Positions 38,480-51,380 of a DNA stretch of 64,000 nucleotides are shown one piece after another. The position numbers were made by a program, and so were the translations under genes. Source of the DNA: an uncultured Verrucomicrobiae bacterium (GTDB taxonomy: Bacteria > Verrucomicrobiota > Verrucomicrobiia > Palsa-1439); NCBI GenBank assembly GCA_963812605.1, contig CAWEWF010000014.1:704001-768000 (forward strand). Direction: 5' to 3'. Each line of letters opens with the position of its first letter. Position 1 is the first letter of the stretch. The notes under the pieces are model-generated. The model ran no database searches and was not told the DNA's origin. It was given only the letters and a program-made list of their open reading frames with translations.

Positions 38480-38487
38480 CTCGATCT

Positions 38488-39588: not shown

Positions 39589-39593
39589 ACCGC

Positions 39594-42051
39594 ATGTCCT
39601 ACGCACCGGAACTCGAACGCCTCCTTGGTCAGCTCATTAGCGGCGATATCCTGTTCTTTCCGATCCGGCACCATAGTCCGGCCTGTGCCTGGCATCTGCA
39701 GCGGCTAATCGAGCAGTACCGGCGAACGTCGATCCTGGTGGAAGGCCCGGCCAACTTTACTCCGCTTATCCCGTTGATCTTACATCCGCGTACCCGCACT
39801 CCGTTTGCGGTCTACACTACTTACGTGGACACAACCCGTCGCGTCAACAAAAGCCTGGCTAAGGAGCGTGGTGATTTCGGTCCGGCGCGCTTTGCGGCCT
39901 ACTACCCCTTCTGTAACTATTCGCCGGAGTTGGTCGCCTTGCGCTCGGGAATAGCGGCGGGCGCGCGTCTGCAGTTCATCGATCTGGATTATCCTCGCCA
40001 GGTTCTCTCCGAGAAGCCAGCGGATGACCTTCCCGCAGCGCCCCGGGTCGATTCGTTGCTGGAGGAGCGCCATCTCAAACGCAGCGCGTATTTGAAACAA
40101 TTGGCCAAGCGGACCGGCTGTCGGGACCAGGACGAGTTGTGGGACCACTTGTTCGAGGTGAACTATGCCGAGGTTTCGACCGAGACTTTTGTAAAGAACG
40201 TCGCCGCCTACTGCTACATGGCGCGCCACGACTACCTGCCGGACGAACTGGCTGCCGATGGAACACGGGCGCGCGAACAATCAATGGCCAAAGCCATCCG
40301 GGAGGAACGGGCGGCGGGCCGCAGCGGAAACATCCTCGTTGTGACCGGTGGGTTTCACACCGTGGTGCTGCCTGATATGCTTCACAGTGAAACTGACGAG
40401 CAGAAGTTGCCGATACCCGACGGCGAGAGCATTTCGCCGGTACTGATCCGCTACAGCTTTGACCAACTCGATTCGCTGAACGGTTACGCCGCCGGCATGC
40501 CATCCCCGCACTATTACGATCAGTTCTGGGATCGGGCGATCGAAGGCCAGCCGCGCCCGTTCCTGGAAACCGCCGCGAACCTGCTTGTCGAGATCGGCCG
40601 GCTGACACGGGAGAAGTCATTGCCGAACGCGCTGTCCACCGCTGATGAAATCGCAGCCCTGGAGCAGGCGCGGCGCCTGGCGCTCTTGCGCGGTCACGTG
40701 GGCCCGACCCGCGAAGATCTGTTGGATGGCGTGCGCAGTTGTTTCGTCAAGGGTTCGATGGATGCCGAAGGCGCGGTCTTGATGGGGATCGCGCGGCACG
40801 TTCTCTCCGGCACGGCCATCGGCGATATTCCTCCCGAAGCCGGTGCGCCACCGTTGGTGGAGAACTTCCGCGCGGTGGCCATCGAACTGCGTCTCAACAT
40901 TACCGAGTCCGTGCGCCGCAAGCTCTCGCTGGACATCTACCGGAGCGTCGCACACCGGACAATCAGCCGCTTCTTCCATAGTTTGAGTTTTCTTCAAGCG
41001 CCCTTTGCGGCCCTGGTCGCCGGGCCGAACTTCGTGCAGGGCACGGGACTGCAGCGCCTCCAGGAACACTGGGATTACTTCTGGAGTCCACGCACGGAGA
41101 GTGCCCTGGTCGAAGCCTCGGTGTATGGTTCGACGGTTGAAGAGGCTGCCGCCAACCGACTGCGACAGGACGTCATCAATTTGGAGCAACAGGGCCGCGG
41201 CCGTAGCGCCCTGGAAGCGGTCAGGATGCTGGTCATGGCGTGCCGGATGGGGCTGCATCGGCATACGAAGCAGTTGCTCGATCTCATCGCCGGCAATGTC
41301 GTGGAGGATTCCTCTTTCGTGTCCGTCGTGCAGGCAATGAACCAGCTTTTGTTGCTGTGGCAGTCGCGCGAGCCGTTGGAAGCGCATCATCTGCCGGAGA
41401 TTCCATCCCTGTTGCGCATCGCCTACGAACGCGCGTGTTATCTCGTGCGCGGCCTTGCCAGTTCTCCGCAGGAAGAAATCTACAGCGTCCTCCAAGCCTT
41501 CAACACCATTCGCGAAGCGCTGGCCGCCGTGAAAGACGATCTTCTGGACGCGGACCTCTTCTGGCAGGAAGTGGCCGCGCTGCCCGCTATCCGCCCGGCC
41601 AATTCGGCGGTAGTGGGTGGCGCCGCCGGGCTCGTTATACGGCGACAACCGCCTTAGCGAGAAGATGTTGCTCGAAATGATGCTCGGTCATTTGGATGCA
41701 GCAACCTCCGACAACCGATCAAAGGTCGGATTCGTCATCGGGCTGCTGCGAACGTGCCGGGAGGTGGCCTGGCAACAACACGCGTTGCTCGAAGCCATCG
41801 ACCAACTTCTTGCCTCGTGGGACGAGCACGAGTTCATTCGTCTTTTGCCGGAGCTGCGGATTGCGTTCGCCGGCCTCACACCGCGTGAGACCGACCGCGT
41901 GGCCGGTGCCGTTGCCGGGCTACACGGGCAAAAGGATCTCGGTGAGTTGATTCATTACGACATCAACCAGGCCGCTTTGTCCTTTCATCTGAACGTCACG
42001 CAGGAAGTGCTGCGCAGTCTGGAGCACGATCAATTGGCTGACTGGGCATGA
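39594..42051 (+). CDS. yehM: DUF5682 protein (YehM-like), frameshift near 41640
   Basis: PIRHHSPACA, YSPELVAL, VVTGGFH, GYAAGMPSP; second frame LLPELRIAFAGLTPRET. Confidence 0.82.
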
Positions 42052-43178
42052 GTGTGATCTCCTCCAATCCGTTGAGCCGGTGGCGGCTGGTGCTGGGCAA
42101 GTATGCCGCCGATCGCCTGCCGTCCGGGCTCTCGGAGACGGAACAACGCATCGAGACCGCTCTCGATTATCTGTACTCACGCGAGTATCGGGGCCGCGGG
42201 ATGCGCGAAAAGGAAAAGGAGCCGGGCTCACTGGATGCCTCCCAGTTGAATATCCCCGCCTGGCTCGCCGAAGTACGGGAACTTTTTCCGAAAGAGACCG
42301 TGGAAGTCATCGAGAAACACGCGCTCGACCGTTATGGCATGACGGAATTGGTCACCGACCGGGAGGTCCTGAAAAAGCTCCAGCCAAATCTCGATTTACT
42401 CAAGGCCATCCTCACGTTCCGCGGGCATATGAAAGAAGACGTACTCGCCGAAGCGCGGCGGCTGGTGCGGCACGTTGTCGAGGAGATCAAACTGAAAATG
42501 GAACCGGAAGTTCGACGGGCTTTGGCCGGCAAGCTCAATCGATTTCGGCATTCCAATCTCAAGGTTGCGCAGAATTTCGACTGGCGCGGCTCGCTGCGAA
42601 AGAACCTCAAGAATTATGACCCGATCCGGCAGAAGATCATAGTGCAGGACGTGCAATTCTTCTCGCGCAACGAACGCCGGCTGCCCTGGCACATTATCCT
42701 GTGCATCGATCAGAGCGGCAGCATGGCCAGTTCGGTCATCCACAGCGCCGTGATGGCGGGTATTCTGACGAGTCTGCCCATGCTACGGGTGAAACTGGTC
42801 GTGTTCGACACTTCGATCGTCGATCTCAGCGAGCATGTGGACGATTCGGTGGAAGTTCTGATGAACGTACAACTCGGTGGCGGCACGGACATCGGGCAGG
42901 CGCTGACCTATTGCGAAGGTTTGGTCGAGAACCCCAAACGCACGGTCGTGGTGTTGGTCAGCGACTTCGCCGAAGGCGCATCGCCGGCGCGGCTGCTGGA
43001 TACATGCCGACGCTTGCGCGAGGCCGGCGTCATCCTGTTGGGACTGGCTGCGCTCGACGAACAAGCCAACGCGTCCTACGACGTGAAGATGGCCGAACGG
43101 CTGGCTGAAATCGGCATGGAAATCGCCGCACTGACCCCGAAACGATTGGCCCAATGGCTGGCGAAAGTCATATCCTAG
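42048..43178 (+). CDS. yehP: vWA (CoxE-like) protein (YehP-like)
   Basis: RWRLVLG, MIDAS DQSGSM, QLGGGTDI, SDF.EG. Confidence 0.9.
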   Translation: MSVISSNPLSRWRLVLGKYAADRLPSGLSETEQRIETALDYLYSREYRGRGMREKEKEPGSLDASQLNIPAWLAEVRELFPKETVEVIEKHALDRYGMTELVTDREVLKKLQPNLDLLKAILTFRGHMKEDVLAEARRLVRHVVEEIKLKMEPEVRRALAGKLNRFRHSNLKVAQNFDWRGSLRKNLKNYDPIRQKIIVQDVQFFSRNERRLPWHIILCIDQSGSMASSVIHSAVMAGILTSLPMLRVKLVVFDTSIVDLSEHVDDSVEVLMNVQLGGGTDIGQALTYCEGLVENPKRTVVVLVSDFAEGASPARLLDTCRRLREAGVILLGLAALDEQANASYDVKMAERLAEIGMEIAALTPKRLAQWLAKVIS

Positions 43179-45257
43179 GCAAACTGCAAACGCTGCTGGT
43201 GTCGTTCGATGACAGAGCGTTTGAAGCGTTGGCGAGCCGTGGGCTGTTGCGACGCGCGCAGAAGGATTTGGAGGGCGGCGTTCCTGTCGAGATTACCGGC
43301 GATGTGCCCGCTGGTCTTGCGGTCAAGGTTGCCAATTTCACTGTTACACTTCCCGAAGCTGGTCCCGCGAAAGCCAAATGCACGTGTCGTTCCCCGGGCA
43401 TCTGTCAGCATATTCTGATGGCCTGCCTGTTTCTCCAACGCACCGCTGCACTCCCCAAGCAAGCTGACCTCCTGACAGTGGAAGCGACTACTACCGGACG
43501 CGGGCGCGATGAACTGTTGGCATTCACCGCCGAGCAACTCGGGCAATGGGCTAGCAAGCCGGCATTGCGGGCGGCGTTCGCATTGCTCGCGGCGCAACCA
43601 CCAATCCAGATGGAAACCAAAGGCGCGATCATTGTCCGTTTCCCTGATCACGGTGCGGAGTGCCGCTATGTTGCCGGTGGCGGATTGGATGGAATGGTTG
43701 TGACCGCACCGCAGGGTGCTTCCATGAAGTTTGCCGTGGCAGCGGTGTTGGCGTTTCAGCAGTCCCAGGGCCTCAAGCTACCCGAAGCCGCAACGGCGGC
43801 ACCTGCCCTGGCGGAAACCCGGGGCGCACCACGCACGCGAGATGAAGTCCTCGGTACCAGCCGTCAACTCCTTGAAGAGTCTGTGTGCGTCGGTCTTTCC
43901 CACCTCTCGATCTCATTTGAGCAGCGGTTTGCCACGCTGGCGGTTTCCGCGTTGGGAGTCAATCTTCCTCGATTGTCACTGGCGCTGCGCGGAATTGGCG
44001 ACGAGATTTCGCTGATCGTCAAGCGCGACGCGCAGGCTGATGAAGCGCGCCTGCTGCAATCAGTGTCACGCGCCCACGCACTTTGTCATGCTTTGCGTAC
44101 AACCATTCCCCCGCCACGAGCCGACTTGATCGGGTGGCATCGCACCCAATATGAGGAGGTCGGCCATTTGGAACTACACGGTGTCGCCGCCTACCCGTGG
44201 CGGACAAGTTCTGGTTACGAAGGATTAACGGTTCTATTTTGGGAGAACACAGCCTGCCCGGTGGTACTCGTGGTCGGAAGCCCGACCACGCCACCAAGCC
44301 GGCAGTTTCAATCCCCGCGACCGCTACAAACAAGAAAGTCCATGGCAGGGCGCGACCAGTCCTGACCAGCTTTCGCGCTCGAGCTTCAAGCTCATGCATG
44401 CGCGACGGAATCCCCTGGGCCGATTGTCTGCTTCTGCGAAGAGCCGAGCGTTGATCGTTGGCCCGACATCGCCCGTGACGCTCAACTTTGGCAATAAAAT
44501 CTTCTCGCACTGGAGTTCTCTCCAGCAGTACGCGTGCGAACTCTCGCCTATCGGTCTCGGGGAGTTCAATCCACTCGAGGAGATTGTGGTCTTGCAACCG
44601 GCAAACTGGGGCCGGCGACATTTCGATCAGGTTTCACAGACTTTCACCTGGGCCATCCTCGACGAAGACGGTGACGCGCTGACCCTGGAAGTGCGGTTTA
44701 ACGACCTGAACGACATCACCATCAAGTTTCTTGAGAATCTCAATCCCCGCACTCCGCGCGTGAGCGCGTTAATCGCCAAAATCTCGCGTACCGGCCTGAC
44801 AATCGCTGCGCAACCGATTTCGTTGGTCATGCCGGATGCGACGGGCACGGCGATTCTGAATCTTGGATTCGATGCCGCGCCCCGCCAGACGGTCCTGGCA
44901 AAGATAAAAGACCTGGTAAACACCATGGCTGACGAAGAGCCTCTGCTGGCTGATGAAGAGGGCGAGGCAGAGGAGTTCGTTCTTCTGGGTTCCAGCTTCG
45001 ATCAGCTCGTCACCAATCTGGAATCATTGCTTCAGAAGATCGCGGAACGCGGCTGCCGAACTCTTACTACGGTAGCCAGCCATGAACTGAGCGCGACCGC
45101 CGCAAACATGGAAGCCGCAGGGTTCAACATTCTTTCAAAAGCCATCCATCACTTGATCGGCAACACAAAGTGGCCAGCGCCGGATCTGCTCCAACTTCGC
45201 TACCTCTGCCTCGTTCATCGTCAGGCCGGTCAGCGAGTTGCTGCGCGCAGGACATGA
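43154..45257 (+). CDS. SWIM zinc-finger protein (YehQ-like), frameshifts near 44250-44390
   Basis: CTCRSPGICQH motif, LASRGLLRRAQK, W.T.SGY.G; continues in ORF 44394-45257. Confidence 0.78.
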
Positions 45258-45373
45258 TTTGTCCATCGCATCTGACTGACAAACCAGATGCGGGTACAAG
45301 AAAAAAACTTTCTTGAATGTGTTGAGAAGGTAGAGGTTACACCGGTCTTTTCAATGTCGTGAACAAAAAGTTG

Positions 45374-45402
45374 TTGACGAATGACCCTTGGGAAGTTAGC
45401 TT
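45374..45402 (+). promoter_or_regulatory. Sigma70-type promoter of the leader/tRNA array
   Basis: TTGACG-N17-TAGCTT with an A-rich tract upstream. Confidence 0.65.
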
Positions 45403-45424
45403 ACGCAAGTTTTTGAGGACAGAC

Positions 45425-45568
45425 ATGCGAACGCTAAGACCACAACGTAAATGCGCGACAGCGAGGATGCTTATATCCTCGTTGACCCGTAGTGGTCTGT
45501 TCCCGTCCTTTGTGTCATTAGGCCATTACGTCGCCAAAGATAACACGGGAGGGCCGGGAAGCAGGTAG
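45425..45568 (+). CDS. Putative attenuator leader peptide (47 aa)
   Basis: GAGGA RBS; MRTLRPQRKCATARMLISSLTRSGLFPSFVSLGHYVAKDNTGGPGSR*; last codons complementary to the terminator 5' arm. Confidence 0.65.
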   Translation: MRTLRPQRKCATARMLISSLTRSGLFPSFVSLGHYVAKDNTGGPGSR

Positions 45569-45591
45569 TTGTCACGTCCAGATGTTCCGTG

Positions 45592-45624
45592 AACCCTGCT
45601 TCCGAAAGGAACGCAGGGTTTTTT
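45592..45624 (+). terminator. Intrinsic terminator (attenuator)
   Basis: AACCCTGCTTCC-GAAA-GGAAcGCAGGGTT then T tract; competitor GGAAGCAGG at 45557-45565. Confidence 0.85.
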
Positions 45625-45688
45625 ATTGTCGCTATGCCGAAAAACGAAAGGAATCACAGTTAAAATGAAGATTTAAGGTGAAAAGAAT

Positions 45689-46047
45689 GCCGCGCCACCA
45701 GCGTCAACTGGCAGCGCGGCGGGATCGGTCACTACAACAGGACTCTTGTGAGGGCCACTGAGGAGCAACCTTGTACAAGGTTAGCCTCCTTGGTGCGAAG
45801 GTGTCAAGGGCTCGCCCTTTGCCCGCCGAACTGTCCTGCCGGAGTTGAACGTTTCCCACACCAATCAATAACAACGCCAAGGGCTTCATGGGAGGTGTGC
45901 CCGAAACACCAAAACGTTCCACCGAGAAATCCCGTGGCCACGCCAGCGTCAGGCTGGTGTGAAGGTGTTCGTTCTTTGTTGTGATCAGGGCAGGAACACA
46001 GGGCAACCAATCGAGTGCCGCATGAGGCGGCATTGTGTTCCTGCCCC
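45689..46047 (+). ncRNA. Unidentified structured RNA ahead of the tRNA array
   Basis: Nested stems CACTGAGGAG/CTCCTTGGTG, AACCTTGT/ACAAGGTT, GGGCAGGAACACA/TGTGTTCCTGCCC. Confidence 0.55.
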
Positions 46048-46057
46048 CATTTTCCGG

Positions 46058-46131
46058 GCGCTTGTGGTTTAGCAGCAGAACACCGCGTTGCCAACGCGGA
46101 GGTGCGGGTGCGACTCCCGCCGAGCGCTCCA
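46058..46131 (+). tRNA. tRNA-Gly(GCC)
   Basis: CCGCG-TTGCCAA-CGCGG; CCA; T-loop TGCGACT. Confidence 0.88.
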
Positions 46132-46142
46132 ATTCCAGTGCT

Positions 46143-46216
46143 ACGGCGTGCGCCAGTTCGCGCAGTTGAGTCTCCAAAACTCGGCGTGGTTGGGGCGGCA
46201 CCAACACGCCGTGCCA
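46143..46216 (+). tRNA. tRNA-Trp(CCA), degenerate D arm
   Basis: TGAGT-CTCCAAA-ACTCG; ACGGCGT/ACGCCGT; GCCA. Confidence 0.75.
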
Positions 46217-46220
46217 GTTT

Positions 46221-46296
46221 GGGGACACATGTGCCGTAGCGGCGAGACTGCCTTGCAAGCAGTTTGTGGTGGGTGCAACTCCCACTGTCTCCACCA
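46221..46296 (+). tRNA. tRNA-Ala(TGC)
   Basis: ACTGC-CTTGCAA-GCAGT; G3:U70; ACCA. Confidence 0.85.
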
Positions 46297-46308
46297 GTTC
46301 GGACCCGC

Positions 46309-46399
46309 GGGTGATGTTCCGGTCAACGGTCTGTAGAACCGTGGTCGCTAAAACAAGGTCGGAAGACGACGAGTGGAGCGTTACCACCATCACCCACCA
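46309..46399 (+). tRNA. tRNA-Tyr(GTA), reduced D arm, long variable arm
   Basis: ACGGT-CTGTAGA-ACCGT; GGGTGAT/ATCACCC; ACCA. Confidence 0.72.
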
Positions 46400-46406
46400 G
46401 TTTCAC

Positions 46407-46482
46407 GACTCGGAAGAGGAACAGCAGACTCGCCTGCCTGTCTAGCGGGAGATAACGGGGGCAGCACCCGTCCGGATCGCCA
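46407..46482 (+). tRNA. tRNA-Asp(GTC)
   Basis: CCTGC-CTGTCTA-GCGGG; GCCA. Confidence 0.78.
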
Positions 46483-46487
46483 TTTCG

Positions 46488-46562
46488 CGGGCACGAGGAA
46501 GATAGCAATCCGCCCGGTTTGGAACCGGGAGACACTCGGGGCAGAACCGAGGTGCCCGACCA
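46488..46562 (+). tRNA. tRNA-Pro(TGG)
   Basis: CCCGG-TTTGGAA-CCGGG; CGGGCAC/GTGCCCG; ACCA. Confidence 0.85.
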
Positions 46563-46569
46563 ATTTCCA

Positions 46570-46645
46570 CTCCCCGTAGTTCAGATTATAGAATGCCGAG
46601 CTTCTAACTCGGAGGTCGCAGGTGCGAGTCCTGCCGGGGAGACCA
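46570..46645 (+). tRNA. tRNA-Arg(TCT)
   Basis: CCGAG-CTTCTAA-CTCGG; ACCA. Confidence 0.9.
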
Positions 46646-46653
46646 GTTTTGAT

Positions 46654-46728
46654 TCCATCGTGGGATAACAGTAGTCCACCGTCCTGTTAAGGCGAGAGGT
46701 CGTGGTGCGAATCCACGCGATGGAGCCA
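46654..46728 (+). tRNA. tRNA-Asn(GTT)
   Basis: CGTC-CTGTTAA-GGCG; TCCATCG/CGATGGA; GCCA. Confidence 0.88.
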
Positions 46729-46729
46729 G

Positions 46730-46821
46730 GGAGTCCAGGCCGATACAAGCTGGCGGCACTCGTCTTGAAAACGAGATCTGGCGCAAGCCAGAGGCGGGAG
46801 CATTACCTGCGGACTCCGCCA
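46730..46821 (+). tRNA. tRNA-Ser(TGA)
   Basis: CTCGT-CTTGAAA-ACGAG; long variable arm; GCCA. Confidence 0.87.
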
Positions 46822-46853
46822 ATTCAGAAACAACAACCGAAGGAGATAAGGCC

Positions 46854-47033
46854 ATGTACACCACCAAGACAGAAACGGTCGCTCGGATCCCCATCCAACG
46901 CTGGCGAAATACGCGCTTTGTCGTACCGGTGCGGGAAACGCGACGCCATCGGTCGCTGGCAATACCGGATCCGCCACACCGGAAGAGGACGCGTCGCGGA
47001 TCATTCACCGAAACTGACGCGCGCGCCCCATAA
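46854..47033 (+). CDS. 59-aa Arg-rich small protein inside the tRNA array
   Basis: AAGGAG RBS; MYTTKTETVARIPIQRWRNTRFVVPVRETRRHRSLAIPDPPHRKRTRRGSFTETDARAP*. Confidence 0.5.
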   Translation: MYTTKTETVARIPIQRWRNTRFVVPVRETRRHRSLAIPDPPHRKRTRRGSFTETDARAP

Positions 47034-47075
47034 CGCGCATTGTTTACCATGCCTGTCGCAAACGATGCGCCCTTC

Positions 47076-47149
47076 CCTTCCGTAGCTCAAGAGCAGAGCG
47101 GTCGGCTGATAACCGACAGATCACGGAGCGTTACCGTGCGGAAGGACCA
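47076..47149 (+). tRNA. tRNA-Ile(GAT)
   Basis: GTCGG-CTGATAA-CCGAC; ACCA. Confidence 0.88.
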
Positions 47150-47151
47150 AC

Positions 47152-47226
47152 GGCTCGGAAGCTCTCGGAGGAGAGCGTCCCGCTGAAAACGGGAAAGGGG
47201 CGGTGCAACTCCGTCGCGAGCCACCA
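47152..47226 (+). tRNA. tRNA-Phe(GAA)
   Basis: TCCCG-CTGAAAA-CGGGA; ACCA. Confidence 0.85.
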
Positions 47227-47235
47227 CTTTGTTTT

Positions 47236-47309
47236 GTTCTCGAAGTGTAAGAGATCTGCACGTCCCGTTGCGAACGGGAAGGTTCGGGGTGCGAATCCCT
47301 GCGAGAACA
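47236..47309 (+). tRNA. tRNA-Arg(GCG)
   Basis: TCCCG-TTGCGAA-CGGGA; GTTCTCG/CGAGAAC; no encoded CCA. Confidence 0.82.
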
Positions 47310-47338
47310 CTTTACCCCGAATTCTTTCGGGCCAGTTT

Positions 47339-47415
47339 GCCTCTGTGGCCGAGACTGTCCAGGCACGGCTTTCGTAAAGCCGACCACATCGGTGCAATTC
47401 CGATCGGAGGCCCCA
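47339..47415 (+). tRNA. tRNA-Thr(CGT)
   Basis: CGGCT-TTCGTAA-AGCCG; CCA. Confidence 0.85.
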
Positions 47416-47422
47416 GTTTGCT

Positions 47423-47497
47423 GGTGACCGTGGTGTAAGAGCAGCACCGCAGACCGTGAATCTGCAGGAGCGGGTGTAAGTCCCGTCGGTCGCCCCA
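47423..47497 (+). tRNA. tRNA-His(GTG)
   Basis: GCAGA-CCGTGAA-TCTGC; G-1:C73; CCA. Confidence 0.87.
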
Positions 47498-47505
47498 ATT
47501 CGTTC

Positions 47506-47578
47506 GTCCCGCGAGGGAGCCAGTGAACCCGCCTGTCTGCAAAACAAGCACTGTGCGGTGCGACACCGCAGCGGGACT
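47506..47578 (+). tRNA. tRNA-Cys(GCA)
   Basis: TGT-CTGCAAA-ACA; GTCCCGC/GCGGGAC; U73. Confidence 0.78.
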
Positions 47579-47588
47579 TCAATTTCAT

Positions 47589-47663
47589 GCCTCCAAAGAA
47601 TAGACAGCGATTCGCGTCATCGGTAATGACGACAGCACAGTGCGATTCTGTGTGGAGGCTCCA
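47589..47663 (+). tRNA. tRNA-Thr(GGT)
   Basis: CGTCA-TCGGTAA-TGACG; GCCTCCA/TGGAGGC; CCA. Confidence 0.83.
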
Positions 47664-47670
47664 ATTCGAT

Positions 47671-47749
47671 GCGGCAGTGATGTTGAACAGAATGAGCATG
47701 GCTGCCTTCCAAGCAGCTCGTGTGGGTGCGACTCCCATCTGCCGCACCA
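47671..47749 (+). tRNA. tRNA-Gly(TCC)
   Basis: GCTGC-CTTCCAA-GCAGC; ACCA. Confidence 0.87.
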
Positions 47750-47755
47750 CTTCGA

Positions 47756-47829
47756 CGCGGGTGAGTAGCGTGGCACTACAGGAGGCTCATACCCTCCAGA
47801 CGCCGGTTCAATTCCGGCACCCGCTACCA
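47756..47829 (+). tRNA. tRNA-Met(CAT), initiator-like
   Basis: GGAGG-CTCATAC-CCTCC; unpaired C1/U72; only array member with a TTC T-loop. Confidence 0.82.
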
Positions 47830-47836
47830 ATTTTCT

Positions 47837-47911
47837 CGCTCCGTAGCACAAACGCAGTGCGCCGGTTTCATACGCCGGAGATTGCCAGTGCGAACCTGGC
47901 CGGAGCGACCA
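47837..47911 (+). tRNA. tRNA-Met(CAT), elongator (or Ile2)
   Basis: CCGGT-TTCATAC-GCCGG; ACCA. Confidence 0.83.
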
Positions 47912-47915
47912 GTTC

Positions 47916-47990
47916 GGGTCGCAAGCATTGCAAGCGATGCAGCGGATTCTTACTCCGCAGAACACGGGGCGGTACCGTGGCGGCCCACCA
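47916..47990 (+). tRNA. tRNA-Lys(CTT)
   Basis: GCGGA-TTCTTAC-TCCGC; ACCA. Confidence 0.83.
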
Positions 47991-47998
47991 ATCCATTC

Positions 47999-48073
47999 GC
48001 CTGCGTGGCCGAAAAGTCAGGCACCGGTTTTGTAAACCGACCCATGCAGGTGCGACTCCTGCCGCAGGCTCCA
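47999..48073 (+). tRNA. tRNA-Thr(TGT)
   Basis: CGGT-TTTGTAA-ACCG; GCCTGCG/CGCAGGC; CCA. Confidence 0.87.
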
Positions 48074-48079
48074 ATTGAT

Positions 48080-48154
48080 TGCCTCGTGGTGTAACCAGCG
48101 GCACATCCGTCTCTGAAACGGAAAGTCCGGGTGCAATTCCAGGCGAGGCAGCCA
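48080..48154 (+). tRNA. tRNA-Gln(CTG)
   Basis: TCCGT-CTCTGAA-ACGGA; U1:A72; GCCA. Confidence 0.87.
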
Positions 48155-48161
48155 TCGTCAC

Positions 48162-48236
48162 GCCGCACTAGCCCAATGCAGAGGCACCAGTCTTAGAAAC
48201 TGGACAGTCCTGGTGCAAATCCAGGGTGCGGTACCA
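48162..48236 (+). tRNA. tRNA-Leu(TAG), short variable loop
   Basis: CCAGT-CTTAGAA-ACTGG; ACCA. Confidence 0.85.
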
Positions 48237-48240
48237 ATTC

Positions 48241-48316
48241 GCTCCCGTAGCTCAAAGTATAGAGCGCCCGGCTTCGAACCGGGAGGTTGCAGGTGAGATT
48301 CCTCCCGGGAGCACCA
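48241..48316 (+). tRNA. tRNA-Arg(TCG)
   Basis: CCCGG-CTTCGAA-CCGGG; ACCA. Confidence 0.87.
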
Positions 48317-48325
48317 ACGTCCGAA

Positions 48326-48397
48326 GCTCGTGTAGCCCAACGCAGAGGCAGTCGGCTTAAACCCGATCCAGTGCCGGTGCAATCCCGGCCACGAGCA
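48326..48397 (+). tRNA. tRNA-Leu(TAA), short variable loop
   Basis: GTCGG-CTTAAAC-CCGAT; GCTCGTG/CACGAGC. Confidence 0.83.
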
Positions 48398-48402
48398 CCG
48401 AT

Positions 48403-48478
48403 ACCGACGTAGCCCAACAGCAGAGGCACCAAGCTCAAACCTTGGCCAGTGTGGGTGCGACTCCCTCCGTCGGTACCA
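48403..48478 (+). tRNA. tRNA-Leu(CAA), short variable loop
   Basis: CCAAG-CTCAAAC-CTTGG; ACCA. Confidence 0.84.
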
Positions 48479-48484
48479 ATTCAC

Positions 48485-48577
48485 GGAGCATGAACCGGGC
48501 AAGCGAACCGGGACTGTTTGCTAAACAGATCGACCCGCATCCAGCGGATTGAGGCGCAAGCCCTCCGTGCTCCGCCA
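48485..48577 (+). tRNA. tRNA-Ser(GCT)
   Basis: CTGT-TTGCTAA-ACAG; long variable arm; GCCA. Confidence 0.82.
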
Positions 48578-48587
48578 GTTCCTTCTC

Positions 48588-48676
48588 CCGCCCGTAGTTC
48601 AAAGAGAACCGTCCGCCTTATAAGCGGAATCGCACTGGATGAGTGCCAGGCCTCGGAGCGTTACCGAGCGGGCGGA
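48588..48676 (+). tRNA. tRNA-Ile(TAT) with long variable arm
   Basis: TCCGC-CTTATAA-GCGGA; variable stem GCACT/AGTGC; CCGCCCG/CGGGCGG. Confidence 0.75.
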
Positions 48677-48677
48677 T

Positions 48678-48755
48678 GGCCGTGATCGCGAAGCAGCTCC
48701 AGCGACCTGTCTTTCAAGCAGGATCCAGCGGGTGCGAGACCCGCCACGGCTGCCA
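48678..48755 (+). tRNA. tRNA-Glu(TTC)
   Basis: CCTGT-CTTTCAA-GCAGG; GCCA. Confidence 0.82.
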
Positions 48756-48757
48756 AC

Positions 48758-48834
48758 GGACTCGAAGCCACAGCAGACCGGCACCGGACTTTTAATCCGG
48801 CAGGGTGAGGTTGCAACTACCTCCGGGTCCACCA
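48758..48834 (+). tRNA. tRNA-Lys(TTT)
   Basis: CCGGA-CTTTTAA-TCCGG; ACCA. Confidence 0.84.
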
Positions 48835-48860
48835 ATTTCGCTCGTATTGCCCAATGCGTT

Positions 48861-48934
48861 TGCCGAGTCGTCCAATAGTAGGACATCTCGCTTTGAACGA
48901 GAAGATCGTGGTGCGAATCCACGCTCGGCAGCCA
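48861..48934 (+). tRNA. tRNA-Gln(TTG)
   Basis: TCTCG-CTTTGAA-CGAGA; U1:A72; GCCA. Confidence 0.9.
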
Positions 48935-48939
48935 ATTCC

Positions 48940-49013
48940 CGCCCGATGGTGAAATAGGATCACGCCTGGCTTACATCCAGGAATCCGGGGAGCATAACCT
49001 CGTCGGGCGACCA
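48940..49013 (+). tRNA. tRNA-Val(TAC)
   Basis: CCTGG-CTTACAT-CCAGG; ACCA. Confidence 0.85.
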
Positions 49014-49023
49014 GTTTGATGAT

Positions 49024-49109
49024 TTGCGGAAGTGAGACGGGAGTTCCTTCGGAGCTCAATCACCGAGCACTGGCCTGTTAAGCCAGCCTCCCGGCAGGAT
49101 ACTCCGCAA
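49024..49109 (+). ncRNA. Y-RNA-like unit 1
   Basis: TTGCGGA/TCCGCAA terminal stem; AGTGAGACGGGAGTTCCTTC matches the shared motif. Confidence 0.6.
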
Positions 49110-49123
49110 TGCTCTTTCGGCGA

Positions 49124-49255
49124 TTTGAGGTAGTGAGATCGGAGTTACTTCGCATGACAAGCGAGAGGTTGCCGGTTCGATTCCGGTCGCGGCCAGCAAT
49201 GGCTGCGTAGCTCAATGGTAGAGCGCTTACGTCTCTGATCGATTTTCTCCTCAAA
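49124..49255 (+). ncRNA. YrlA-type Y RNA with permuted tRNA-like domain
   Basis: Terminal stem encloses T arm GCCGGTTCGATTCCGGT, a loop-closed acceptor-like stem, then D arm TAGCTCAATGGTAGAGC; upstream of Ro60. Confidence 0.8.
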
Positions 49256-49260
49256 ACTTT

Positions 49261-49356
49261 TTGGGGTAGTGAGATTCGGGTTACTTCATGGTCCTGTTGG
49301 TTCGAATCCAACCTTCAGCCTTCCGGCTGATGTTCCCGGGTCGGTTTACTCCTCAA
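49261..49356 (+). ncRNA. Y-RNA-like unit 3 (T arm retained)
   Basis: GGGGTAGTGAGATTCGGGTTACTTC...GTTGGTTCGAATCCAAC...GGTCGGTTTACTCCTCAA. Confidence 0.7.
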
Positions 49357-49380
49357 AACAATCCAAACACAACCAAATCC

Positions 49381-49477
49381 GTGAGGCAGTGAGGTCAGGG
49401 CTACTTCGAAACTGGGATGGGTGAAAACCCCACCAGTCTGGCCGCAAGGCCGTTTCCCCGGCCGGTTTACTCCTCAC
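49381..49477 (+). ncRNA. Y-RNA-like unit 4
   Basis: GTGAGGCAGTGAGGTCAGGGCTACTTC...GGCCGGTTTACTCCTCAC. Confidence 0.68.
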
Positions 49478-49498
49478 ACAACCTGAAAGGAGCACGCA

Positions 49499-50931
49499 AT
49501 GAGATTCAACCTGCTCAAGAGACGCCGCACGGGCGCCGATACCGTCAACTTCGCTGGAGGCGAGGCGTTCACGGAATCCCCAAAGCTGGAACTGGCGGCG
49601 CTAATGTTGACCGCGACACTGCAGAACGACTTTTATCGTTCCGCCAACGCCACTGCTACGCGCTTGAAGGAACTCATCGGCAAGATCGACGACAAGAAGT
49701 TTGTCGCCAAGACTGCGCTCTACGCCCGCAACAAGGCGGGGATGCGTTCGGTTTCACATCTGACTGCCGGTGAGTTGGCCCGCACCGTGAAGGGGCAGCC
49801 GTGGACTGCGAAGTTCTACGAACAAGTGGTCCGCCGCCCGGATGACGCGTTGGAAATCCTCGCGTACTACCTGGCGATGCACGGTCGGCCCATCCCAAAC
49901 GCGTTGAAGAAGGGCCTGGGCGCTGCCTTGGCGCGTTTCGACGAGTACCAGTTGGCCAAGTATCGCAAGAGCGCTGCGGAAATCTCGCTCGTGGACGCGG
50001 TAAACCTCGTTCACCCGAGACACACCGAGGCATTGAAGAAGCTGGTCAACGGCACTCTCGCGCCGGCAGAAACCTGGGAAACCAGACTGACGGAGGCGGG
50101 TGCGGCGGCGGAGTCGGAAGACGAACTCGCCGAGTTGAAGAAGGACGTGTGGACGAAGCTGATCGAGAGTCGCAAGCTCGGTTACTTCGCGCTGTTGCGC
50201 AACCTGCGCAACATTCTCCAAGCCGCGCCTGAGTCAATGGATGCGGCCATCACAATGTTGACGGATGAGAGGCTCATCCGGCGCTCGTTGGTGCTGCCAT
50301 TCCGTTATCCTCACGGCGCTCGAAGCAATGCAGGCGACTAAGCCTGCCGAATGTCAGCAAGGTACTCGTTGCTCTCAGCGAGGCGGTGGACAAGTCTCTT
50401 GTTAACGTGCCGCAGTTCGATGGCAAGACGCTGGTTGCGCTGGATGGCTCTGGTTCGATGCAGGGGCGTCCCCTGAAGATCGGCTCGCTGTTTGCCGCAA
50501 CGCTGGCGAAGGCCAACGATGCGGACGTAATGCTGTTCAGTAACGACGCGAAGTATGTCTCCCTGAACCACCGTGACAGCACGTTGACGCTGGCGCAGTG
50601 GCTGGAGAGCCAGGCCCAGTCGGCGGGAACCGACTTCCATTGCATCTTCCAGACGGCGAAGCGCGGTTATGATCGCGTGATCATCCTGTCGGATATGCAG
50701 GGTTGGATCGGTCACTACGCTCCGACCAAGACCTATGAGGCGTACAGGAGACAGTTCGGGGTTGACCCGAAGGTTTTCTCGTTCGATCTCAAGGGTTACG
50801 GCACGTTGATGTTCCCCGAACGCAGCATCTATTGTTTGGCCGGCTTCTCCGACAAGACAATGGACATGCTGAAGTTCCTCGACTCGGATAAGTCCGCATT
50901 GCTTCGAGAAATCGAGGCCGTCGAGTTGTAA
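49499..50931 (+). CDS. rsr: Ro60/Rsr TROVE-vWA RNA-binding protein, apparent frameshifts near 50310-50340
   Basis: NFAGGEAF, FDEYQLAKY, LGYFALLRNLRNI, LPFRY; C-terminal vWA DGSGSM, GTDF, ILSDMQ. Confidence 0.88.
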
Positions 50932-50935
50932 CCTC

Positions 50936-50975
50936 GGGAGCTTCCTGACCACGGTTGGGAAGCTCCCTTCTCTTT
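50936..50975 (+). terminator. Hairpin after Ro60 gene
   Basis: GGGAGCTTCC...GGAAGCTCCC followed by TTCTCTTT. Confidence 0.5.
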
Positions 50976-51063
50976 CCAGTAATTTGAAGCATCCGGCAAC
51001 GACAACCGAGCTGCGTCGTCTGTCATTACACAAATCAACCCGCTCGGAGAAAGGAGCCACATC

Positions 51064-51307
51064 GTGAGATTCAACATCCTGAAGAGACGCAGCACGAACG
51101 CCGATTCCGTCAACTTTGCCGGCGGGGAGGCATTTACCGAGTCGCCAAAGGTGGAACTGGCGGCGCTGATGTTGGGCGCAGGCAACCAGCTTGGTCTTGG
51201 GCAACCACCATTGACATTGGTTGCGTTTTCACTAATCCGCAATCGCGAAGTTCCTCGACTCGGACAAGACGGCGCTGCTGCGAGAAATCGAAGCGGTGGA
51301 GTTGTAA
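51064..51307 (+). pseudogene. Internally deleted second Ro60 copy
   Basis: Start MRFNILKRR..NFAGGEAFTESPKVELAALML and end KFLDSDKTALLREIEAVEL* match the termini of 49499-50931. Confidence 0.85.
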
Positions 51308-51380
51308 ACAAACCCGGTGGAGGAGTAGCTTGAAGGCGTGCTCCTCCATCCCATTGAATGATAGGAAAGGAAACACCAAC

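What the first reader, a model, noticed from the sequence alone, without database searches (positions are those of the whole stretch)
45425..45624. Codon-sampling leader peptide attenuator that could sense loss of almost any tRNA
Seen: the 47-codon leader uses 38 distinct codons (hand count) and 18 amino acids. These include 5 of 6 Leu, 5 of 6 Ser, all 4 Gly and 4 Arg codons, plus A-ending or AGR codons that are scarce in the GC-rich genes here (CGA, CTA, AGA, AGG, ATA, TTA, TCA). Its last codons GGA AGC AGG (45557-45565) are exactly complementary to the terminator 5' arm CCTGCTTCC (45595-45603). Established: classical attenuators (trpL, hisL) use runs of one amino acid. Inference: a ribosome reaching the TAG stop masks the antiterminator and keeps the array off. 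A stall at earlier codons frees it and gives read-through, making this a general sensor of decoding capacity.
Basis: partly seen in the sequence, partly recalled or inferred. Interest (0 to 1): 0.92.

Follow-up and report, generated by a model that had tools for sequence, protein, structure and literature searches.

The report
Leader-peptide attenuator gating a tRNA array
A short translated reading frame followed by a transcription stop signal sits in front of a spare set of about 20-27 tRNA genes in a soil bacterium, and probably lets transcription run into those genes only when ribosomes are slow.

Summary
In detail: ATG 45425 to TAG 45568 is 47 codons, 38 distinct, 18 amino acids. GGAAGCAGG (45557-45565) is the exact complement of the terminator's 5' arm (45595-45603).

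It is a conserved module: promoter, Shine-Dalgarno, 44-48-codon ORF, stop, 21-26 nt, terminator. I aligned 31 distinct copies from Verrucomicrobiae genomes and soil or peat metagenomes.
- Frame 0 is open in 30 of 31; frames +1 and +2 are open in 1 and 2 of 31.
- ATG-to-stop length is a multiple of 3 in 29 of 31.
- The peptide evolves almost neutrally (pN/pS 0.87, no third-position excess), so the act of translation is what looks selected.

The same leader precedes two cargos: accessory tRNA arrays, as here, or an MsbA-like ABC exporter. An array-only query found homologous arrays in 4 of 40 relatives, and all 4 carry the leader.

Best reading: a ribosome-dependent transcription attenuator that senses general translation capacity. 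Its closest known relative is BmrB-bmrCD, but here it gates tRNA genes.

The codon-sampling idea is only partly supported. Array-linked leaders exceed composition-matched shuffles in codon diversity (mean z +1.9, 15 of 15 positive) and hold 5-9 rare codons. ABC-linked leaders do not (z -0.1; 0-6 rare codons). That is a single phylogenetic contrast. Nothing was tested experimentally.

The parts
45374..45402 (+). Putative promoter: -35 TTGACG (45374-45379), 17-nt spacer, -10 TAGCTT (45397-45402)
   Evidence: TTGACG is present in 11 of 11 BLAST-found copies, followed 17 nt later by a TAnnnn hexamer. Homology to the other loci begins just upstream of it. The consensus scan did not call it, because the -10 is weak. 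The transcription start site was not mapped.
45415..45419 (+). Shine-Dalgarno-like GAGGA, 5 nt before the ATG
   Evidence: A GGA, GAG or AGG purine motif lies within 16 nt upstream of the conserved ATG in all 31 distinct copies.
45425..45568 (+). Leader ORF: 47 codons plus TAG (MRTLRPQRKCATARMLISSLTRSGLFPSFVSLGHYVAKDNTGGPGSR)
   Evidence: Codon counts are. Frame 0 is open in 30 of 31 copies against 1 and 2 of 31 for the other frames. Lengths are 135-147 nt and a multiple of 3 in 29 of 31. pN/pS is 0.87 and variability by codon position is 0.21, 0.23, 0.21. There is no Pfam match.
45439..45496 (+). Conserved 5' stem-loop inside the ORF: ACCAC (45439-45443) pairs with GTGGT (45492-45496), enclosing hairpin CGAGGA (45462-45467) / TCCTCG (45476-45481)
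   Evidence: The helices are 96% and 95% paired over the 31 copies, with several pair types. They also appear in the MFE fold of the window sequence. Their role is unknown.
45557..45565 (+). Antiterminator 5' strand GGAAGCAGG, which is the last three sense codons GGA AGC AGG
   Evidence: It is the exact complement of 45595-45603. 277 of 279 cells are paired in alignment A1, with no covariation. It forms in the MFE of the nascent RNA ending at 45607.
45592..45624 (+). Intrinsic terminator: stem 45592-45603 / 45608-45620 (C45612 bulged), loop GAAA, T run 45619-45624
   Evidence: Folds at -19.9 kcal/mol. The stem columns are 99% paired in 31 copies. The spacing from the stop codon to the stem is 21-26 nt in 31 of 31 copies.
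45626..46057 (+). Structured spacer between terminator and first tRNA. It holds a mini-ORF ATGAAGATTTAA (45665-45676), a hairpin at 45689-45720, an AGGACT motif that matches the ABC gene's ribosome-binding site, and a long hairpin at about 45975-46043
   Evidence: The fold z-score is -3.5. There is no Rfam family. The first ~110 nt are shared with the 5' UTR of the ABC-exporter versions, up to the ABC start codon.
46058..49010 (+). Accessory tRNA array, the cargo
   Evidence: 17 tRNAs are called by ARAGORN in the array stretch 46058-48934, the array-plus-distal region holds 18 with Arg-cct at 52618, and Rfam in this span. With relaxed ARAGORN settings 26 fall in the array stretch, one of them on the opposite strand. 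15 of 18 tRNA genes in the array region have an anticodon also encoded elsewhere in the genome.

Best explanation
The element is a self-contained regulatory module. It has its own promoter, a translated 47-codon leader ORF and an intrinsic terminator. The terminator's 5' arm can pair instead with the last nine sense bases of the ORF.

It most likely acts as a ribosome-dependent transcription attenuator that reports general translation capacity.
- Translation keeps pace: the lead ribosome reaches UAG and covers 45557-45565. Its footprint ends about 13 nt past the stop, short of the terminator stem, which starts 26 nt after the first base of the stop. The terminator forms and transcription ends at about 45624.
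- The ribosome is late, stalled or absent: causes could be translation inhibitors, scarce charged tRNA or damaged tRNA. GGAAGCAGG then pairs with CCUGCUUCC as soon as the latter is made. The terminator cannot fold, and RNA polymerase runs through the structured spacer into the array of supernumerary tRNA genes.

There is no run of one codon, so the sensor is generic and not specific to one amino acid.

Shown: the anatomy, its conservation, ORF maintenance without peptide selection, and modular use with two cargos.

Inferred: that it is translated, the direction of the switch, and that the array has no promoter of its own.
For: 1. Conservation.
- The leader plus terminator was found in 10 of 40 related genomes by BLAST.
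- It was found in 10 of 13 genome-contig hits and 28 of 31 metagenome hits.
- These give 31 distinct sequences.

2. A translation signature.
- SD plus ATG is kept in 31 of 31 copies.
- Frame 0 is stop-free in 30 of 31 copies. Frames +1 and +2 are stop-free in 1 and 2 of 31, with about 2 stops each.
- ATG-to-stop length is a multiple of 3 in 29 of 31, with five different lengths.
- The stop codon sits 21-26 nt before the terminator stem in 31 of 31.

3. The peptide is not the selected object.
- pN/pS is 0.87 over 406 pairs, with no period-3 pattern.

4. The switch.
- A 9-bp complement has a chance probability of 0.0027.
- 277 of 279 cells are paired. At the three positions my search pattern left free, 91 of 93 cells pair, five of them through A-to-G changes that keep a G-U pair.
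- Nascent RNA folded up to 45607 adopts the antiterminator. The full RNA adopts the terminator.

5. Modularity.
- The same leader sits 47-133 nt upstream of an MsbA-like ABC exporter in 6 genomes (G001, G004, G006, G012, G014, G016).
- It sits about 390-450 nt upstream of tRNA arrays in 5 genomes (G000, G003, G010, G015, G025).
- Upstream flanks differ from just before the -35.

6. Array-first ascertainment.
- A query without any leader sequence found homologous arrays in 4 of 40 relatives. All 4 have the leader.

7. The cargo fits the proposed signal.
- The array is supernumerary: 15 of 18 array tRNA genes have an anticodon also encoded elsewhere.
- In Anabaena a long tRNA array is induced by translational stress (passages of PMC8421152; abstract of PMC10272220).
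- ABC exporters under ribosome-mediated attenuation are known (abstract and section 16 of PMC4191407).
Against: - There is no experimental evidence of translation, termination or read-through.
- No covariation supports the antiterminator. Both strands are nearly invariant.
- For the 41 pattern-derived loci my search pattern fixed 6 of 9 bases on one strand and all 9 on the other, so their conservation is partly by construction. Only the 11 BLAST-derived copies are free of this bias.
- At equilibrium the terminator (-19.9 kcal/mol) wins in every ribosome-masking fold I tried. The switch must therefore be kinetic.
- 2 of 31 copies have a shifted frame: L045 by +1 and L010 (same sequence as L026) by -1.
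- Many conserved codons are invariant at synonymous sites (CGA, CCA, CAA, TCC TCG, GGT AGT GGT CTG). The RNA therefore has other, unexplained constraints.
- About 430 nt of conserved structured RNA lies between the terminator and the first tRNA. It could hold a second promoter or a second control point. I saw no conserved promoter there but could not exclude one.
- The one RNA-library contig that covers the leader runs straight across the terminator, from 45512 to 45789. It comes from a relative, at depth 2.5, and DNA carry-over is not excluded.
Confidence: 0.7

Rival explanations
1. Codon-sampling, or tRNA-supply feedback. In the array-linked leaders, codon choice itself is selected. The ORF uses as many different codons as possible, including the host's rarest. 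A shortage of nearly any tRNA then delays the ribosome and switches the array on. The array's own tRNAs, which read AGA, AGG, ATA, CTA and TTA, then speed up the leader and switch it off again.
For: - Array-linked leaders: 33-39 distinct codons in 44-47. Their z-scores against shuffles of their own bases run from +0.73 to +2.93, mean +1.91, positive in 15 of 15.
- ABC-linked leaders: 28-35 distinct codons, mean z -0.11, positive in 7 of 13.
- Amino-acid diversity follows the same trend, with mean z +0.95 against +0.02.
- Codons used at under 5 per 1000 in the host: 5-9 per array-linked leader (mean 7.6) against 0-6 (mean 2.5) per ABC-linked leader.
- The array encodes tRNAs with anticodons tct, cct, tat, tag and taa.
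- In BmrB, recoding five rare codons lowered basal read-through about six-fold (section 16 of PMC4191407).
Against: - The cargo label changes only once on the leader tree, and the ABC clade has 100/100 support. The contrast is one evolutionary event, not 28 independent samples.
- The rare-codon count of array-linked leaders (7.6) equals the uniform expectation (7.7). It may only mean absence of codon adaptation.
- The excess over random is about 5 codons.
- Several rare codons lie in helices (AGG and ATA in the 45462-45481 hairpin), so RNA structure may fix them.
- Host codon usage was measured in G000 only.
Confidence: 0.25
2. A drug-specific arrest peptide, of the Erm, Cat or TnaC type. The nascent peptide, with conserved MRxLxPQ and GGPGSR ends, stalls the ribosome only when a particular antibiotic or small molecule is bound.
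For: - Partial peptide conservation: M-R/Q-x-x-R/K-P-Q, SS, GSGL and GGPGSR.
- One cargo is an ABC exporter.
- At one Gly position (column 46) there are four synonymous codons and only one amino acid.
Against: - pN/pS is 0.87 and there is no period-3 pattern.
- The conserved residues coincide with blocks that are invariant at synonymous positions too, as expected for RNA-level constraint.
- Stalling at the very C-terminal GGPGSR would mask the antiterminator, not free it.
Confidence: 0.08
3. An independent small gene or small RNA. The promoter-to-terminator unit, about 215 nt, is a stand-alone small RNA or small-protein gene. The array or ABC gene downstream is transcribed from its own promoter.
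For: - The unit has its own promoter and a strong terminator.
- The RNA is more structured than its shuffles (z -3.45).
- Attenuator RNAs can act in trans (rnTrpL; abstract listing of PMC6614838).
Against: - The unit is always directly upstream of, and co-oriented with, one of two cargos. In L055 the downstream content is different and unidentified.
- In ABC versions only 47-133 nt separate the terminator from the start codon.
- The ORF is maintained yet the peptide is not selected.
- The antiterminator complement would have no role.
Confidence: 0.1
4. A protein- or ligand-binding leader RNA, riboswitch-like, in which the ORF is incidental.
For: - Conserved nucleotide blocks and helices exist that the attenuator model does not explain.
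Against: - There is no Rfam match even at E <= 10.
- Open-frame retention is 30 of 31 against 1-2 of 31 in the other frames.
- ATG-to-stop lengths of 135, 138, 141, 144 and 147 nt in 29 of 31 copies imply in-frame indels only.
- SD and ATG are conserved.
Confidence: 0.05

Closest known systems
BmrB leader of the bmrBCD operon, Bacillus subtilis (ribosome-mediated transcriptional attenuation of a multidrug ABC exporter; PMC4191407, abstract and section 16 read)
   Same: A short translated ORF with alternative stem-loops and an intrinsic terminator gates a downstream ABC exporter. It responds to impaired protein synthesis in general, not to one amino acid. Rare codons in the leader tune basal read-through. 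The sister copies of the present leader also gate an ABC exporter.
   Different: There is no sequence relationship, and the phylum differs (Verrucomicrobiota). Per that paper's section heading, the BmrB terminator lies within the bmrB coding region. Here the stop codon lies 21-26 nt before the terminator stem. Here the cargo in five genomes is a tRNA array, not a protein gene. Nothing here has been tested at the bench.
Classical amino-acid operon attenuators (trpL, hisL, pheL; from general knowledge, plus abstract listings)
   Same: Promoter-proximal leader ORF. A terminator whose 5' arm can pair with an upstream strand. The ribosome's position decides which hairpin forms.
   Different: There is no run of codons for one amino acid. 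The cargo is not a biosynthetic operon. The antiterminator strand is the very end of the ORF. A trp-like 1:2 anti-antiterminator helix is not clearly conserved.
toiL uORF of topAI-yjhQ, Escherichia coli (PMC12121999, abstract read)
   Same: A multipurpose uORF in which stalls at different positions, from different translation stresses, relieve repression of the downstream genes.
   Different: toiL acts by opening a ribosome-binding site and so preventing Rho-dependent termination. The present element has an intrinsic terminator and, in this window, a non-coding cargo that has no ribosome-binding site to open.
[quoted passage not shown]
   Same: An accessory array of about 20 or more tightly packed, mostly supernumerary tRNA genes, with a patchy distribution. 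In Anabaena the array is silent normally and induced by translational stress, which is the signal the present leader would sense.
   Different: In Anabaena, control is by the repressor TrcR acting on direct repeats over the -10 and transcription start. The words 'leader', 'attenuat' and 'terminator' do not occur in PMC8421152, and that repeat motif is not in this window. Here control would be by a leader-peptide attenuator.

Membership tests
Ribosome-dependent (leader-peptide) transcription attenuators | Short ORF with a ribosome-binding site and start codon near the transcript's 5' end, maintained in evolution | tested here: met
   SD plus ATG is kept in 31 of 31 copies. Frame 0 is open in 30 of 31, against 1 and 2 of 31 for the other frames. 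Length is a multiple of 3 in 29 of 31.
Ribosome-dependent (leader-peptide) transcription attenuators | Intrinsic terminator between the leader ORF and the regulated genes | tested here: met
   A 12-bp G+C-rich stem plus a T run, folding at -19.9 kcal/mol. It is present in all 31 copies, although 20 of those came from a pattern that required its 5' arm.
Ribosome-dependent (leader-peptide) transcription attenuators | A mutually exclusive antiterminator that a ribosome on the ORF can mask or free | tested here: inconclusive
   A 9-bp complement ends at the stop codon, with a chance probability of 0.0027. 277 of 279 cells are paired, but there are no compensatory changes. It forms in the nascent-RNA fold only.
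Ribosome-dependent (leader-peptide) transcription attenuators | Read-through depends on translation of the leader | not testable with these tools
   This needs reporter, Term-seq or Ribo-seq data. The only RNA-library contig is uninformative.
Amino-acid-specific attenuators (trpL/hisL type) | A run or cluster of codons for the regulating amino acid | tested here: not met
   No codon occurs more than twice, and 18 amino acids are used.
[quoted passage not shown] | Many (about 20 or more) closely spaced tRNA genes that add supernumerary copies to a complete housekeeping set | tested here: met
   17 tRNAs by ARAGORN in 46058-48934 and 18 Rfam matches in 46058-49010. With relaxed settings 26 fall in the array stretch. 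15 of 18 tRNA genes in the array region have an anticodon that is also encoded elsewhere in G000.
[quoted passage not shown] | TrcR-type direct repeats over the -10 and transcription start (the Anabaena mode of control) | tested here: not met
   The published motif has 0 matches in the window with up to 1 mismatch.
Known RNA families (T-box, riboswitches, Y RNA, ribosomal-protein leaders) | A match to a curated covariance model | tested here: not met
   Rfam at gathering thresholds finds only tRNAs. At E <= 10 over 45200-46100 there is nothing relevant.

The most novel reading that the evidence does not exclude
The array-linked leader is a tRNA-supply attenuator. Its ORF has been selected to sample an unusually broad set of codons, including the host's rarest. 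Loss or damage of almost any tRNA species then delays the ribosome and switches on a near-complete backup tRNA set. Possible causes are starvation, anticodon nucleases or phage attack. The array's own products then decode the leader faster and close a negative feedback loop. This would be the first attenuator whose signal and whose cargo are both tRNAs.
Probability: 0.25. Interest if true: 0.9.

Novelty: new variant of a known kind. Interest (0 to 1): 0.72.

Why it matters
Accessory tRNA arrays are widespread in bacteria, plasmids and phages. How they are switched on is known in essentially one case, the Anabaena TrcR repressor.

A leader-peptide attenuator in front of such an array would tie tRNA supply directly to ribosome speed, with no protein regulator. 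That gives a simple, testable mechanism for inducing an array under translational stress.

The same leader is plugged into an ABC exporter in sister genomes. This shows a portable translation-stress sensor cassette in Verrucomicrobiota, a phylum in which I know of no described attenuator (recalled, not searched).

If the codon-diversity signal holds up, it would be a new design principle for attenuators: breadth of codons instead of runs of one.

Tried and rejected
- **Rfam.** Gathering thresholds over the window and over four array loci, and E <= 10 over 45200-46100, found no family other than tRNA.
- **Pfam on the leader peptide.** No match.
- **Consensus promoter and terminator scan.** It missed both the leader's promoter and its bulged terminator, so it was of no use here.
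- **Covariation for the antiterminator and the RNAalifold consensus.** The strands are too invariant. Only 5 of 33 predicted pairs show any double change. An all-against-all helix scan added only ACCAC/GTGGT and the CGAGGA/TCCTCG hairpin. A trp-like 1:2 helix and an SD-sequestering helix were considered but not supported.
- **Ribosome-masked equilibrium folds.** The terminator forms whatever is masked, so equilibrium thermodynamics cannot model the switch.
- **More distant homologues.**
  - The ABC exporter's membrane domain was found in 5 of 301 genomes of the class, all in the same genus.
  - Array DNA was searched in 401 genomes of the phylum. Only the own genome and one 63-nt tRNA match turned up.
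  - Phage and plasmid collections gave no match.
- **Ro60/TROVE-like ORF after the array.** I asked whether it is a conserved partner. It was not found with this query in 5 genomes, 4 of which carry arrays.
- **Enrichment of leader codons for those read by array tRNAs.** Rejected by a hand count: about 24 of 61 codons are decodable by the strictly called array tRNAs, and about half of the leader's codons.
- **Expression.** No run held half of the sampled words. One metatranscriptome run held 5%, and its contigs from a relative cover 45512-45789 and three other pieces. That shows neither a 3' end nor transcription for certain.
- **Direction of the cargo swap.** Whether the array or the ABC gene came first is unresolved. 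The shared post-terminator UTR and the midpoint-rooted tree point in opposite directions.
- **L055.** It carries a third, unidentified downstream content with no Pfam match.
Full report
**What is there.**
- The window is contig C14, 704001-768000, of a 4.17-Mb, 90%-complete genome. Its closest public relatives are Verrucomicrobiae MAGs from bog, palsa, peat and soil (record titles).
- The finding lies between a MoxR/VWA/DUF4132/DUF5682/SWIM gene cluster that ends at 44365, plus an unannotated 287-aa ORF that ends at 45257, and a plus-strand tRNA array that starts at 46058.
- The ORF is exactly as described: ATG 45425 to TAG 45568, 47 codons, 38 distinct, 18 amino acids.
- GGAAGCAGG (45557-45565) is the reverse complement of CCTGCTTCC (45595-45603). 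That stretch is the core of the 5' arm of a strong bulged terminator hairpin (45592-45620, -19.9 kcal/mol) followed by six T.
- A perfect 9-nt complement to that arm anywhere in the upstream 182 nt occurs in 0.27% of shuffles.

**It is a conserved module.**
- BLAST of 45260-46140 against 40 related genomes matched 10 of them: 9 of 17 in the same genus and 1 in another family of the order.
- Homology starts just upstream of an invariant TTGACG. A TAnnnn hexamer follows 17 nt later, then a GGAG-type motif, an ATG, an open frame, a conserved stop and the terminator.
- A pattern built from the stop-proximal and terminator motifs then found more copies:
  - 13 loci in the species-representative genomes, 10 real and 3 false;
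  - 31 metagenome loci, 28 real (2 of them cut by a contig end) and 3 false.
- After removing duplicates, 31 distinct sequences were aligned (A1).
- Caveat: the pattern fixed GGAAGC, TAR and ACCCTGC(N)TTCCGA. Invariance of those bases in the pattern-derived loci is therefore by construction. The 11 BLAST-derived copies show the same invariance without that bias.

**The frame is kept but the peptide is not.**
- From the conserved ATG to the conserved stop, frame 0 has no stop in 30 of 31 sequences. Frames +1 and +2 average 2.1 and 1.9 stops and are open in 1 and 2 of 31.
- The ATG-to-stop length takes five values (135, 138, 141, 144, 147 nt) and is a multiple of three in 29 of 31. The exceptions are L045 (+1) and L010 (-1, identical to L026).
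- In contrast, non-majority frequencies at codon positions 1, 2 and 3 are 0.21, 0.23 and 0.21, and mean pN/pS over 406 pairs is 0.87.
- Conserved codons are conserved at all three positions: CGA, AGA/AAA, CCA, CAA, TCC TCG, GGT AGT GGT CTG, GGA GGN CCN GGA AGC AGG.
- So selection acts on the existence, length and end-point of the ORF and on RNA-level blocks, not on a protein. That is the signature expected of a regulatory leader ORF.
- It argues against a stand-alone small protein and against an incidental ORF in a riboswitch-like RNA. Rfam has no match.

**Geometry of the switch.**
- The stop codon is 21-26 nt upstream of the terminator stem in all 31 sequences.
- A terminating ribosome would cover the antiterminator strand but not the terminator.
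- The 9-bp pairing is kept in 277 of 279 cells. At the three positions the pattern left free it is kept in 91 of 93, five times through an A-to-G change that keeps a G-U pair. There is no compensatory double change.
- Folding the nascent RNA up to 45607 gives the antiterminator. Folding the full RNA gives the terminator, whatever 30-nt ribosome footprint is masked. Any switch is therefore kinetic, as in classical attenuators.
- Two more helices inside the ORF are conserved: ACCAC/GTGGT, enclosing CGAGGA/TCCTCG. Their role is unknown. A trp-like 1:2 helix is not clearly conserved.

**One leader, two cargos.**
- In G003, G010, G015, G025 and the window's genome, the leader is followed after about 390-450 nt by a tRNA array that starts with tRNA-Gly(GCC).
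- In G001, G004, G006, G012, G014 and G016 it is followed after 47-133 nt by a 634-680-aa MsbA-like ABC half-transporter. That protein matches Pfam ABC_tran. NCBIfam hits fall below every family cut-off.
- The metagenome loci split the same way. One, L055, has a third, unidentified downstream content.
- The window's genome has no close homologue of that exporter; the best match is 26% identity.
- The first ~110 nt after the terminator are shared by both versions, up to the ABC start codon. They hold a mini-ORF, a hairpin with compensatory changes, and the AGGAC ribosome-binding motif. One cargo therefore replaced the other at that point.
- On a maximum-likelihood tree of the 31 leaders, the ABC-linked ones form one clade (100/100) and the cargo label needs a single change. 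The direction of the swap is unresolved.
- A query made of array DNA only (46560-47600) found homologous arrays in 4 of 40 relatives. These are exactly the four that carry the leader.
- No further array was found in a 400-genome sample of the phylum, nor in the phage or plasmid collections.

**The cargo.**
- ARAGORN tRNAs in the array stretch 46058-48934, and tRNA-Arg(cct) lies apart at 52618. Rfam in 46058-49010. With relaxed ARAGORN settings 26 fall in the array stretch, one of them on the opposite strand.
- Several have unusual T-loops, and the three whose flanks I printed have an encoded CCA.
- Of the 18 tRNA genes called in the array region (45000-53000), 15 have an anticodon that is also encoded elsewhere in the genome. 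The array is therefore supernumerary.
- In Anabaena a comparable long array is silent and is induced by translational stress. There the control is the repressor TrcR acting on promoter repeats (passages of PMC8421152; abstract of PMC10272220). That repeat motif is not in this window.
- Three full-text searches found no paper that links a tRNA array to a leader peptide or an attenuator. This is negative evidence from the held library only.

**Codon sampling.**
- Against real genes the leader is extreme: 38 distinct codons against 28.0 +/- 2.8. Against shuffles of its own bases it is marginal: 33.3 +/- 2.25, P = 0.028.
- Across the family the signal is more interesting:
  - All 15 array-linked leaders lie above their own shuffle mean (z +0.73 to +2.93, mean +1.91). 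The 13 ABC-linked leaders do not (mean -0.11).
  - Amino-acid diversity shows the same trend, mean z +0.95 against +0.02.
  - Array-linked leaders carry 5-9 of the host's ten rarest codons and ABC-linked ones 0-6 (means 7.6 and 2.5). The uniform expectation is 7.7 and the CDS expectation about 1.5.
- The array itself encodes tRNAs for AGA, AGG, ATA, CTA and TTA. A feedback loop is therefore conceivable.
- In BmrB, recoding five rare codons lowered basal read-through about six-fold without abolishing induction (section 16 of PMC4191407).
- The cautions are serious:
  - The two cargo classes are separated by one branch.
  - The rare-codon content equals what no selection at all would give.
  - Some of these codons sit in conserved helices.
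  - Codon usage was measured in one genome.
  - The ORF was flagged because of this property.
- I put this refinement at about 0.25.

**Expression.**
- One soil metatranscriptome run held 5% of the sampled words.
- Its assembled contigs, from a relative (20 differences in 283 nt), cover 45512-45789 across the terminator, plus three other pieces of the spacer and array.
- Contigs cannot show 3' ends and DNA carry-over is possible. This shows at most that RNA reading through the terminator may exist.

**Verdict.**
- The anatomy and its conservation make a ribosome-dependent transcription attenuator the best explanation (0.7).
- It works like BmrB-bmrCD and, in its breadth of signal, like toiL (abstract of PMC12121999). 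It shares no sequence with them, lies in another phylum, and here gates tRNA genes.
- It is a new variant of a known kind.

Noticed in passing
L006 and L029 (G025) and L042, arrays downstream of the leader; also L047: The two distinct array loci that encode a tRNA with anticodon CUA (an amber-suppressor type, labelled 'Pyl' by ARAGORN) have TAA as the leader stop codon. 28 of the 31 distinct leaders end in TAG and 3 in TAA. L047 also has TAA, with no CUA tRNA in the 3.3 kb held. The pattern fits a leader stop codon that ribosomes really read. However, L006 and L042 are one clade, so this is a single event.
   Followed up: partly
window 49499-50341 (+): A 280-aa ORF with a partial TROVE (Ro60-like) domain lies about 500 nt after the array (profile positions 35-172 of 442 matched). 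It was not found with this query in four other array-bearing genomes. No Y-RNA family was detected.
   Followed up: partly
window 45689-45720: A conserved hairpin lies between the terminator and the cargo, in both array and ABC versions. It shows compensatory changes (GCCGCG...CGCGGC against GCCCCG...CGGGGC). It pairs better on the minus strand (14 pairs including G-U), where the scan called it terminator-like. A three-codon mini-ORF ATGAAGATTTAA (45665-45676) with its own GGA motif precedes it.
   Followed up: partly
window 45886-46057: A second conserved spacer module is present even in L047, which lacks the first module. It ends in a long hairpin (about 45975-46043) followed by CCATTTTCC, directly before tRNA-Gly. 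The whole spacer folds with z -3.5. It could be a processing site or a second weak terminator.
   Followed up: no
window 34727-44365 (+): A gene cluster: DUF4132 plus HEAT (1250 aa), MoxR-type AAA, DUF5682, VWA (CoxE-like) and a SWIM zinc-finger protein. DUF5682 appears split into two overlapping ORFs (39573-41657 and 41617-42051), which may be a frameshift or an assembly error.
   Followed up: no
window 52447-53334 (+) and 52618-52692: An HNH-endonuclease ORF as listed overlaps a lone tRNA-Arg(CCT) gene 3.6 kb past the array. The real start of the HNH gene is probably downstream of the tRNA.
   Followed up: no
L055 (metagenome contig), downstream of the leader: The leader copy is followed by neither a tRNA nor the ABC gene within the roughly 1 kb held. 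Instead there is a 59-aa ORF and then a 123-aa ORF, neither with a Pfam match. This may be a third cargo.
   Followed up: partly
window 47152-47223, 47424-47494, 48940-49010: Array members missed by default ARAGORN but found by Rfam fold as cloverleaves with unusual T-loops and an encoded CCA. Their anticodon loops read GAA, GUG and UAC.
   Followed up: partly
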